Assembly: GCA_051251855.1 (NCBI GenBank)
Contig: JBPOGI010000001.1
Location: forward strand, 480,001 to 544,000
DNA from: Roseibacillus sp.
GTDB taxonomy: Bacteria; Verrucomicrobiota; Verrucomicrobiia; Verrucomicrobiales; Akkermansiaceae
Length of the DNA stretch: 64,000 nt
Reading direction: 5' to 3'
The notes below the pieces were generated by a model. That model was not told where the DNA came from. It saw only the letters and a program-made list of their open reading frames with translations, and ran no database searches. Position 1 is the stretch's first letter; every line of letters starts with the position of its first letter. This document shows positions 44,821 to 46,243 of this stretch, piece by piece. The position numbers and the translations under genes are program-made.

Positions 44821-44935
44821 ATCAATTCTTAATTGGGCGGCGGAACGTGGCGGAAGGGCTTACGTTTGCCAAGATAAATATTTGGCAATTTATCGATTTT
44901 TAGTTTCCGTGAGAAGGAGGGAGATTGACCTCCAT

Positions 44936-44967
44936 AAAAAAGAGCCACCCTTAGGTGGCTCTCTTTT
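44936..44967 (-). terminator. Intrinsic (bidirectional-type) terminator after rplT
   Basis: aaaaa-agagccacc-ctta-ggtggctct-ctttt. Confidence 0.85.
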
Positions 44968-45031: not shown

Positions 45032-45409
45032 TTAGGCTGCTTTCTTAGCCTTTTCTTCGAGTGCCTGCTTGGCAGCGTCACAGAAGGTGTTGAAAGCACC
45101 GATGTCATTCACGGCCAAATCAGCGAGAACCTTGCGGTCAACGGAGATATTGGCGGCGTTCAATCCTTCGATAAAACGAGAGTAGGTGAGTCCCTGTGCT
45201 CTTGTTCCAGCGTTGATACGCTGAATCCAGAGGCGTCGGAATTGACCTTTGCGTTTCTTGCGGTCGCGATACTCGTATTGACGTGCCTTGTAGACAGCGT
45301 CTTTAGCATAGCGAAACAGTTTGGAGCGGAAGCCGCGGAATCCTTTCGCGCGCAGTAATACGCGTTTCCGGCGTTTCCGGGAAGCTGGTCCATTTGTAGC
45401 TCTTGGCAT
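45032..45409 (-). CDS. rplT: 50S ribosomal protein L20
   Basis: MPRA...AKGFRG...YRDRKKRKGQFRRLWIQRINA...DRKVLADLA. Confidence 0.97.
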   Translation of the reverse strand: MPRATNGPASRKRRKRVLLRAKGFRGFRSKLFRYAKDAVYKARQYEYRDRKKRKGQFRRLWIQRINAGTRAQGLTYSRFIEGLNAANISVDRKVLADLAVNDIGAFNTFCDAAKQALEEKAKKAA

Positions 45410-45424
45410 TAATTATGTTCTACT

Positions 45425-45504
45425 TGAATAAACGGTTTTTTGTTTTGTTCGTCCCCGGCCGTCTCGTTTATTCAGTTTCCATTGGAAACAGGCGGCGCGG
45501 GGGA
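45425..45504 (-). ncRNA. Candidate structured cis-regulatory RNA (pseudoknot) in the rpmI-rplT spacer
   Basis: Outer stem, inner hairpin and a perfect 10-bp loop-to-downstream pairing (see findings). Confidence 0.55.
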
Positions 45505-45516
45505 TTCTGTCTATGG

Positions 45517-45726
45517 TTACCCGAAGGGCAGGTTCTCGCGGATCGATTTGACACAAGTCTCGTCGACCAAGACCGATTTGCCGAGTGAACGCTTACGCTT
45601 ACGAGATTTCTTCGTAAGAATGTGTCGTTTACCCTGCTTGCGGCGCAAGATCTTGCCCGTGCCAGTCACTTTGAATCTCTTAGCGACTGATTTGCGGGTT
45701 TTGGCTTTGCCAGCTGTTCTTGCCAT
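45517..45726 (-). CDS. rpmI: 50S ribosomal protein L35
   Basis: KAKTRKSVAKRFKVTGTGKI...KRHILTKKSRKRKR. Start MARTAG at 45726. Confidence 0.95.
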   Translation of the reverse strand: MARTAGKAKTRKSVAKRFKVTGTGKILRRKQGKRHILTKKSRKRKRSLGKSVLVDETCVKSIRENLPFG

Positions 45727-46243
45727 GGGAGGGCGGAAACTAGGTAGTCGCGGCCAAATATCAAGGCGATTCTCAAGATATGAGACGTTTTTTTCGAATC
45801 TGGTAGAAAGTGGTGTTTGTTGGGGCTTCGTGGCTTTGAAGGGGATGGGTTTAGTGCACGACTGATTCGATGCCTGAGAAAAGAGAAAAAAATGAGAATC
45901 TGGCCGATACACTGCGGTCGTAGCGTCTACTGAGGGAGATTTGTTTCTTCTCGATGAAGAGTCATGACTCGGCTCGGAATGTATTTTAATGTAACATAAG
46001 TATTTTGTTTAAATGATTGATGTAAATTTGTTATCTCATCGTTCTCGGGTTCGCCAAAGGTGGGCGAGCCAAAAGTTCGAGAATTATGTCCTGAATGATG
46101 GTTATAAGTTGTGACTGAATGGCTTTTGTTCAGGTCTAGAGTTGTGAGAAGAAGATGAAAAATAATTCCTACAACTGTCGGTTGTAGACACGGAAACTCC
46201 TTTGCCAAAGTCCGCTAGCCCCTTTACTTTCAACCAAAATTCA

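What the first reader, a model, noticed from the sequence alone, without database searches (positions are those of the whole stretch)
45410..45516. Candidate undescribed L20 autoregulatory pseudoknot RNA between rpmI and rplT
Seen on the mRNA (minus) strand, with no spare nucleotides between elements: outer-stem 5' arm UCCCCCGCGCCGCCU (45504-45490), hairpin GUUUCC-AAU-GGAAAC (45489-45475), loop UGAAUAAACG (45474-45465), outer-stem 3' arm AGACGGCCGGGGA (45464-45452), a 17-nt A-rich linker, then CGUUUAUUCA (45434-45425). The last element is the perfect 10-nt complement of the loop and ends 15 nt before the rplT AUG. This is a pseudoknot topology next to the translation-initiation region. Established: L20 represses its own operon through rRNA-mimicking mRNA structures, a pseudoknot in E. 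coli and a leader in Firmicutes. Inference: a lineage-specific r-leader relocated to control rplT only. I know of no described family for it but could not search.
Basis: partly seen in the sequence, partly recalled or inferred. Interest (0 to 1): 0.78.

Follow-up and report, generated by a model that had tools for sequence, protein, structure and literature searches.

The report
Verrucomicrobial L20 leader RNA pseudoknot
A small knotted RNA structure, conserved across a large group of Verrucomicrobia that includes Akkermansia, sits just before the gene for ribosomal protein L20 and probably lets that protein switch off its own synthesis, a known kind of control in an RNA fold we found no description of.

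Summary
The pseudoknot precedes rplT in 96 of 98 same-order genomes, against 1 of 70 control loci. Its helix covaries: in a tree-aware test the ten top-ranked column pairs of 325 are all predicted base pairs. The conserved helix is 8 bp, not 10. No Rfam family matches. Where rpmI lies elsewhere in the genome, the RNA stays with rplT. rpmI looks leaderless, which may explain the position. The invariant bases resemble the 23S H40/H41 junction and published L20 operators. However, the second of the two G-C pairs described for L20 sites is C-G in only 25 of 108 rows, and C·A in the window. The location has a precedent, the L20-Deltaproteobacteria candidate (PMC7247131), which is a plain hairpin. 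Verdict: most likely an L20 autoregulatory leader with a new scaffold. Binding and repression are untested. One relevant supplement (PMC11109978) could not be read.

The parts
45737..45764 (-). Promoter-like -35 (TTGATA, 45764-45759) and -10 (TAGTTT, 45742-45737) boxes, 10 nt before the rpmI AUG: rpmI is leaderless or nearly so
   Evidence: Sequence. A TAnnnT box ends 9-11 nt before the rpmI ATG in 104 of 120 motif loci. The strict promoter scan did not list it.
45517..45726 (-). rpmI, ribosomal protein L35
   Evidence: TIGR00001, E 3e-23
45490..45504 (-). P1 5' arm; its last bases G-C-C-U (45493-45490) form the conserved top of P1
45475..45489 (-). P2 hairpin inside the P1 loop; seen in relatives but variable in length and sequence
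   Evidence: not counted in the covariation tests
45466..45473 (-). Pseudoknot helix, 5' strand (8 nt)
   Evidence: Pairs 1-8 canonical in 90-101 of 108 distinct rows; compensatory changes on the tree
45463..45465 (-). Near-invariant G-A-G at the junction of the pseudoknot helix and P1
   Evidence: G40 and A41 invariant, G42 at least 90% in the structure-blind alignment A1
45452..45464 (-). P1 3' arm
   Evidence: P1 84.9% paired; 5 of 7 pairs with changes on both sides
45435..45451 (-). A-rich linker ending in the invariant A-A-C (45437-45435), the candidate AA dimer
   Evidence: A68 A69 C70 invariant in 36 of 36 rows of A1
45426..45433 (-). Pseudoknot helix, 3' strand (8 nt), ending 16 nt before the rplT AUG
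   Evidence: median distance 16 nt in relatives
45410..45425 (-). A-rich translation-initiation region with no Shine-Dalgarno match
   Evidence: SD-like words before rplT in 28 of 141 motif loci against 38 of 40 loci of other classes
45032..45409 (-). rplT, ribosomal protein L20 (proposed ligand and regulated gene)
   Evidence: TIGR01032, E 2.4e-44
44935..44962 (-). Terminator-like hairpin after rplT, followed by a U run on the minus strand
   Evidence: Sequence; the scan listed the hairpin 44941-44962 on the + strand only

Best explanation
An autoregulatory ribosomal leader for L20. SHOWN (comparative): the spacer folds into a compact pseudoknot (P1, a variable P2 in its loop, an 8-bp loop helix, invariant GAG and AAC) directly 5' of rplT, and it follows rplT rather than rpmI. 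INFERRED: the top of P1 (R-Y-C-U paired with Y-G-A-G-R-Y) copies the base of 23S helix 41 (A1151-C1153 with U999-U1004). The pseudoknot helix stacks where helix 40 lies, and the linker's AA docks on those pairs as the rRNA AA dimer does. INFERRED: free L20 binds the folded knot, whose 3' strand lies at -24 to -17 from the AUG, at the 5' edge of a Shine-Dalgarno-less, A-rich initiation region. L20 then competes with 30S loading, so only rplT translation is repressed. INFERRED: the operator sits here because rpmI has almost no 5' leader and infC has left the operon.
For: Prevalence 96 of 98 same-order loci against 1 of 70 controls. Compensatory double changes on the tree total 64 over the 8 predicted pairs, against a mean of 0.38 and a maximum of 3 for the 56 non-partner combinations. 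A structure-blind MAFFT alignment gives 93% paired cells in the pseudoknot helix, all 8 pairs with changes on both sides; slid controls give 28-44%. One strong model hit in the window's genome. 26 of 29 class-wide hits at E <= 1e-3 lie at rplT. In 5 of 5 genomes tested rpmI lies elsewhere; the model hits all 5 rplT loci given and none of the 5 rpmI loci. Invariant bases resemble 23S 999-1004/1151-1155, E. coli site 1 (GCCUG; AAC before the pseudoknot strand), E. coli site 2 and the UGAGG/CCUU core of L20-Deltaproteobacteria. L20 autoregulates through rRNA mimicry in E. coli and B. subtilis (PMC1888825, PMC1865079). No terminator was found between the RNA and rplT.
Against: No binding or reporter data. 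The literature determinant is two consecutive G-C pairs (PMC7247131). Here the first is C-G in 105 of 108 rows (the anchor rule favours this), but the second is C-G in only 25 of 108 (C·A 42, U-G 16, A-U 15, U-A 8). It is C·A in the window and in 23 of 28 own-family rows, whereas all 6 verrucomicrobial 23S copies keep G1003-C1152. A second register, with P1 as helix 40, fits the letters almost as well, so the mapping is not unique. I could not see the papers' figures, so the rRNA numbering of the determinants is my inference. One same-order genome (L030) has no such RNA and one (L241) has a weak helix. Three model hits at E <= 1e-3 are not at rplT. PK pair 5 shows no excess of double changes and pair 1 only a weak one.
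Confidence: 0.72

Rival explanations
1. A constitutive translation-initiation element: the knot and A-rich linker recruit 30S/bS1 to a gene with no Shine-Dalgarno sequence, with no feedback by L20.
For: Motif-bearing loci mostly lack an SD (28 of 141), while motif-less classes have one (38 of 40). In E. coli the ribosome is reported to bind the operator pseudoknot preferentially (PMC10931766).
Against: A general enhancer should occur at other highly expressed genes, yet the model finds one strong copy per genome, at rplT. Chthoniobacterales-type loci keep the knot although they carry GAGGAG downstream. The invariant bases resemble L20 sites.
Confidence: 0.12
2. An mRNA-stability or processing element that shields the rplT part of the transcript, or sets the L35:L20 ratio.
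For: Stable 5' structures protect bacterial mRNAs (general knowledge). Many relatives carry extra hairpins 5' of P1.
Against: Protection needs no invariant GAG/AAC and no fixed distance of about 16 nt to the AUG (91 of 108 within 25 nt). RNA contigs of three studies run unbroken through the spacer, though contigs cannot show ends inside.
Confidence: 0.07
3. A regulatory leader whose ligand is not L20 alone (L35, another ribosomal protein or a small molecule).
For: The mimicry is imperfect at the second G-C pair. Pseudoknots with A-rich linkers and invariant junction bases are also typical of small riboswitches (general knowledge).
Against: The RNA is absent at displaced rpmI genes and kept at rplT. 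It was found with no other gene class. It has no Rfam riboswitch match.
Confidence: 0.07
4. Chance complementarity or a repeat element.
For: The nested fold has z = -1.41 only. Earlier scan notes report repeats in this operon in other lineages (unchecked).
Against: Covariation, prevalence and single copy per genome.
Confidence: 0.01

Closest known systems
L20-Deltaproteobacteria r-leader candidate (Eckert and Weinberg 2020, PMC7247131)
   Same: Same position, downstream of the L35 gene and upstream of the L20 gene (supplement 1). Many of its rows have a GAAC...UGAGG strand paired to CCUU...GAUC, much like the GAAC...YGAGR strand here. It is also unvalidated.
   Different: Its SS_cons is a single hairpin plus an optional second hairpin, with no pseudoknot, and it is followed by AGGAG. 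Here the partner of that strand is split in two, one piece upstream (P1) and one downstream (pseudoknot), and the invariant AA lies in the linker.
E. coli rpmI-rplT operator, site 1 (pseudoknot) and site 2 (PMC1888825, PMC3616713)
   Same: Pseudoknot beside an initiation region. GCCUG paired with an AGG-containing strand. AAC just 5' of the downstream pseudoknot strand. Translational control.
   Different: The E. coli knot is long-range, formed with infC coding sequence. It controls rpmI first and needs two sites. The GG/CC pairs face the pseudoknot helix in the opposite orientation. Here everything lies within 80 nt and infC is absent from 99 of 99 large motif loci.
Firmicutes L20_leader, Rfam RF00558 (PMC1865079, PMC3849166)
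   Same: Proposed H40/H41 mimic with a conserved pair of adenosines.
   Different: It lies upstream of infC and works by transcription attenuation with a terminator. No match above cut-off in this genome, and no terminator follows this RNA.

Membership tests
Ribosomal leaders (r-leaders), general | Conserved, covarying structure directly 5' of a ribosomal protein gene | tested here: met
Ribosomal leaders (r-leaders), general | Found only with that gene | tested here: met
   26 of 29 hits at E <= 1e-3 at rplT, the other 3 weak and not at rplT; stays with rplT when rpmI moves
Ribosomal leaders (r-leaders), general | Binds the ribosomal protein and represses expression | not testable with these tools
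   Needs binding and reporter assays
L20-site mimics (23S H40/H41) | Two consecutive G-C pairs | tested here: inconclusive
   First pair C-G in 105 of 108 rows (anchor-favoured), second only 25 of 108 and C·A in the window; 23S keeps both
L20-site mimics (23S H40/H41) | Conserved AA dimer placed to dock on those pairs | tested here: inconclusive
   AA invariant in 36 of 36 rows of A1; docking is inferred from pseudoknot geometry, not modelled
L20-Deltaproteobacteria | Lies between rpmI and rplT | tested here: met
L20-Deltaproteobacteria | Single-hairpin scaffold holding both AA and GG/CC, followed by AGGAG | tested here: not met
   SS_cons and rows against the pseudoknot here
L20-Deltaproteobacteria | Match to the family's covariance model | tested here: inconclusive
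   No Rfam hit on the spacer at E <= 10 or on relatives. I did not confirm that this family is among the 4227 models; one guessed accession was another family.
L20_leader RF00558 | Model match; upstream of infC; terminator | tested here: not met
E. coli rpmI operator | Long-range pseudoknot with infC coding sequence upstream of rpmI, plus a second site | tested here: not met
   infC is on another contig; the RNA lies downstream of rpmI

The most novel reading that the evidence does not exclude
This is an undescribed, roughly 80-nt pseudoknot that rebuilds the L20 site by splitting one strand of the Deltaproteobacteria-type hairpin into an upstream and a downstream piece. It represses a gene with no Shine-Dalgarno sequence behind a leaderless rpmI. 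With the separate hairpins seen at the same spot in Opitutales-type and Bacteroidia-type genomes, it would show that lineages with little SD use repeatedly invented different L20 operators in the rpmI-rplT spacer.
Probability: 0.35. Interest if true: 0.7.

Novelty: new variant of a known kind. Interest (0 to 1): 0.55.

Why it matters
No ribosomal leader for Verrucomicrobiota turned up in Rfam 15 or in the ten literature searches run. This RNA would be a fourth L20 scaffold, far more compact than the E. coli operator (about 630 nt as studied in PMC1888825), so it suits structural work on rRNA mimicry. Its tolerance of C·A, U-A and A-U at one 'essential' G-C pair would test what L20 really reads. 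It occurs in Akkermansia-labelled genomes. It offers a direct test of how a repressor blocks initiation where there is no Shine-Dalgarno sequence to hide. It remains a member of a well-known regulatory class, and the genomic position has a published precedent.

Tried and rejected
Rfam at gathering and E-value thresholds gave nothing on the spacer or on the spacers of 27 related loci. No 23S rRNA is assembled in the window's genome, so relatives' copies were used. A purely PWM-based register slipped in AAC runs in about 20 of 141 loci. It was replaced post hoc by a 'last AAC' rule, which still leaves 8 low rows, kept in the counts. The idea that the family's C·A pair mirrors a change in its own 23S was rejected. 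The strict sigma-70 scan found no promoter in the window. Model R1 did not hit 60 of 61 outgroup, Opitutales-type, rRNA and E. coli loci, nor two Bacteroidota genomes. Model R2 (Opitutales-type hairpin) did not hit the window. Only assembled contigs were available as RNA data, so strand, level and true ends are not shown. Earlier scan notes held nothing for this sequence. L35 as ligand and transcription attenuation were considered and rejected.

Full report
OBSERVATION. The nested fold alone is unremarkable (z = -1.41). A perfect stem of 10 bp or more appeared in 5 of 1000 shuffles of the spacer. Rfam 15 gave no match on the spacer at gathering level or at E <= 10, nor on the spacers of 12 and 15 related loci.

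LINEAGE. Named loci with the same RNA are labelled Luteolibacter marinus, Akkermansia, Roseibacillus, Verrucomicrobium, Chthoniobacter, Spartobacteria and Terrimicrobiaceae. The window's family includes genomes with the same spacer as an Akkermansia-labelled record (L031 and L130), so I infer order Verrucomicrobiales.

CONSERVATION. rplT loci came. Of the genomes listed, I fetched only part (the automatic loci plus 60 and 40 chosen to spread over families). With one relaxed rule, which picks the best register and was applied equally to controls, 96 of 98 same-order loci have at least 6 of 8 helix pairs. The same holds for 1 of 70 loci from other classes and phyla, and 2 of 25 Opitutales-type loci. 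The exceptions are L030 (50-nt spacer, no motif) and L241 (5 of 8). The 55 loci fetched after the first pattern was written behaved like the first set: 49 matched the pattern, and six have variant GAG positions but keep the complement. Kin are not independent, and several Akkermansia-type rows are near-duplicates. Loci of other classes in the phylum mostly have short spacers with a Shine-Dalgarno match. Several same-class loci also lack the RNA (L052, L058, L065, L069, L076, L159, L160, L162, L164, L165, L169, L173). Two 0.9-Mb genomes (L047, L050) show a degenerate form by eye that the model does not hit.

COVARIATION. The 141 motif loci (chosen by eye as motif-bearing) reduce to 108 distinct cores, anchored on sequence only for the pseudoknot. 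The register rule was adjusted once, and 8 mis-registered or weak rows were kept. Pairs 1-8 are canonical in 90-101 of 108 rows; pairs 9 and 10 in 43 and 29. Native rows average 6.28 Watson-Crick pairs of 8, against 4.15 with swapped partners; slid registers give 2.2-3.8 canonical pairs against 7.15. On an rplT tree, branches with a pair-preserving change on both sides total 64 for the eight predicted pairs. The mean for non-partner combinations is 0.38 and the maximum 3. The ten highest corrected mutual-information scores of 325 column pairs are all predicted pairs (seven pseudoknot, three P1). Pair 5 shows no excess of double changes and pair 1 only a weak one. The P1 anchor in that test was chosen by pairing, so P1 is favoured there. 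A structure-blind MAFFT alignment of 36 diverse rows, selected for at least 6 pairs and a short P2, aligned the same anchors. It gave 93.1% paired cells in the pseudoknot, all 8 pairs with changes on both sides, and 84.9% in P1; slid controls gave 28-44%. The conserved helix is therefore 8 bp.

GENE ASSOCIATION. A covariance model of P1 and P2 finds one strong hit in the window's genome. In 121 class-wide genomes, 26 of 29 hits at E <= 1e-3 lie just before rplT, including genomes outside the training set; three do not. Twenty motif loci have no rpmI within 1.5 kb. In five such genomes rpmI lies on another contig or about 2 Mb away. The model hit all five rplT loci given and none of the five rpmI loci. 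infC is on another contig in this genome and absent from 99 of 99 large motif loci. A -10-like box ends 9-11 nt before the rpmI ATG in 104 of 120 motif loci, against 3 such boxes among 108 other loci. RNA-library contigs from three studies begin 5-6 nt inside rpmI of an Akkermansia-type locus and run through the spacer to the end of rplT; a fourth extends upstream. This is a weak hint only. Leaderless transcripts are about 10% of starts in A. muciniphila (PMC4782308, passages). So rpmI probably has no room for a 5' operator.

LIKENESS TO THE L20 SITE. L20 binds the 23S H40-H41 junction (PMC1888825). The determinants are described as two consecutive G-C pairs and an AA dimer (PMC7247131). I could not see figures. 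From the fetched E. coli sequences and the paper's mutation numbering, I infer these to be G1002-C1153, G1003-C1152 and A1009-A1010. The motif's Y-G-A-G-R-Y strand and R-Y-C-U-G partner match U999-U1004 and A1151-A1155 at most positions. GCCUG, the commonest 5' arm (25 of 108), is also the E. coli site 1 strand (infC 338-342), and AAC precedes the downstream pseudoknot strand in both. Many L20-Deltaproteobacteria rows have UGAGG paired with CCUU. Against this, the second pair is C-G in only 25 of 108 rows and C·A in the window, while six verrucomicrobial 23S copies from five genomes keep G1003-C1152. A register with P1 as helix 40 also fits. Mimicry is plausible, not shown.

MECHANISM. The pseudoknot's 3' strand ends a median 16 nt before the AUG. 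That is at the 5' edge of the ribosome footprint (general knowledge), in an A-rich region usually without an SD (28 of 141). No terminator follows. The best reading is translational feedback: free L20 binds the knot and competes with 30S, as reported for E. coli (PMC10931766). Entrapment is an open alternative within this reading. Confidence 0.72; rivals are listed separately.

WHAT IS KNOWN. The position is not new. The supplement of PMC7247131 places the Deltaproteobacteria candidate between the L35 and L20 genes, but its structure is a hairpin without a pseudoknot. Ten literature searches listed no paper describing a verrucomicrobial L20 leader. Seen: PMC7247131 (passages; supplement 1 passages; supplement 4 parts 52-54); PMC1888825 (abstract, sections 3, 18 and the first part of 19); passages of PMC1865079, PMC3616713, PMC3849166, PMC10931766, PMC6097659, PMC4782308, PMC7779021, PMC10085705 and bioRxiv 10.64898/2026.09.15.751765 (supplements closed). 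PMC8632094 had no hits in its main text or its one readable supplement, and PMC5737381 none in its main text (supplements not searched). For PMC11109978 I saw passages and section 10; its supplement, with 30 ribosomal leader candidates from 16 phyla, could not be read and could hold this motif. Subscription papers are largely outside the library.

VERDICT. A real, well-conserved pseudoknot RNA; most likely an L20 autoregulatory leader with a scaffold not found in Rfam or in the papers searched. New variant of a known kind; interest 0.55.

Noticed in passing
L046, L048, L049, L051, L053-L057, L059-L064, L066-L068, L070, L072, L074, L077, L078, L087, L190 (80 nt before rplT): A different conserved hairpin in the same spacer (AAC, then a bulged stem topped by GGU/ACC) in Opitutales-type genomes (only L190 is named, Puniceicoccaceae). 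7 of 10 pairs show changes on both sides. Its model hits 15 of 121 class genomes, mostly training genomes, and not the families with the pseudoknot. A second L20-leader candidate.
   Followed up: partly
L194, L198, L322-L327, L330 (spacer before rplT): Some Bacteroidota loci (L194 Parapedobacter, L198 Sphingobacterium) show UAAC(C) followed by an imperfect hairpin in the rpmI-rplT spacer. Seen by eye in about 7 of 30 sampled loci; no Rfam hit on the spacers of those scanned. A possible third candidate.
   Followed up: partly
L044, L131, L136, L141, L144, L148, L155, L157, L158, L168, L279, L283-L288: In Chthoniobacterales-type loci a G/A-rich SD-like word and then a stable hairpin lie between the pseudoknot and the AUG, with only 7-9 nt left before the start: possibly a hairpin-bridged ribosome-binding site.
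   Followed up: no
G077, G328, G359, G360, G361: rpmI and rplT are uncoupled in these genomes, unusual for this gene pair; the stand-alone rplT has promoter-like boxes just upstream of the RNA.
   Followed up: partly
window:45727-45764 and relatives: rpmI is preceded by a promoter-like pair of boxes and a C-rich 9-11 nt stretch ending at the ATG across the order, suggesting a conserved leaderless message.
   Followed up: partly
L294 (G162:C1:208268-208324): A weak model hit away from rplT that keeps 7 of 8 pseudoknot-like pairs but lacks GAG; probably chance.
   Followed up: no
L141:1156-1330, L143, L147: Hexamer-like tandem repeats (GATCGT-type and GAGCAC-type) upstream of the stand-alone rplT promoter.
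   Followed up: no
L131 and L134: One MAG carries two rplT copies on different contigs, each with the RNA; paralogues or mixed binning.
   Followed up: no
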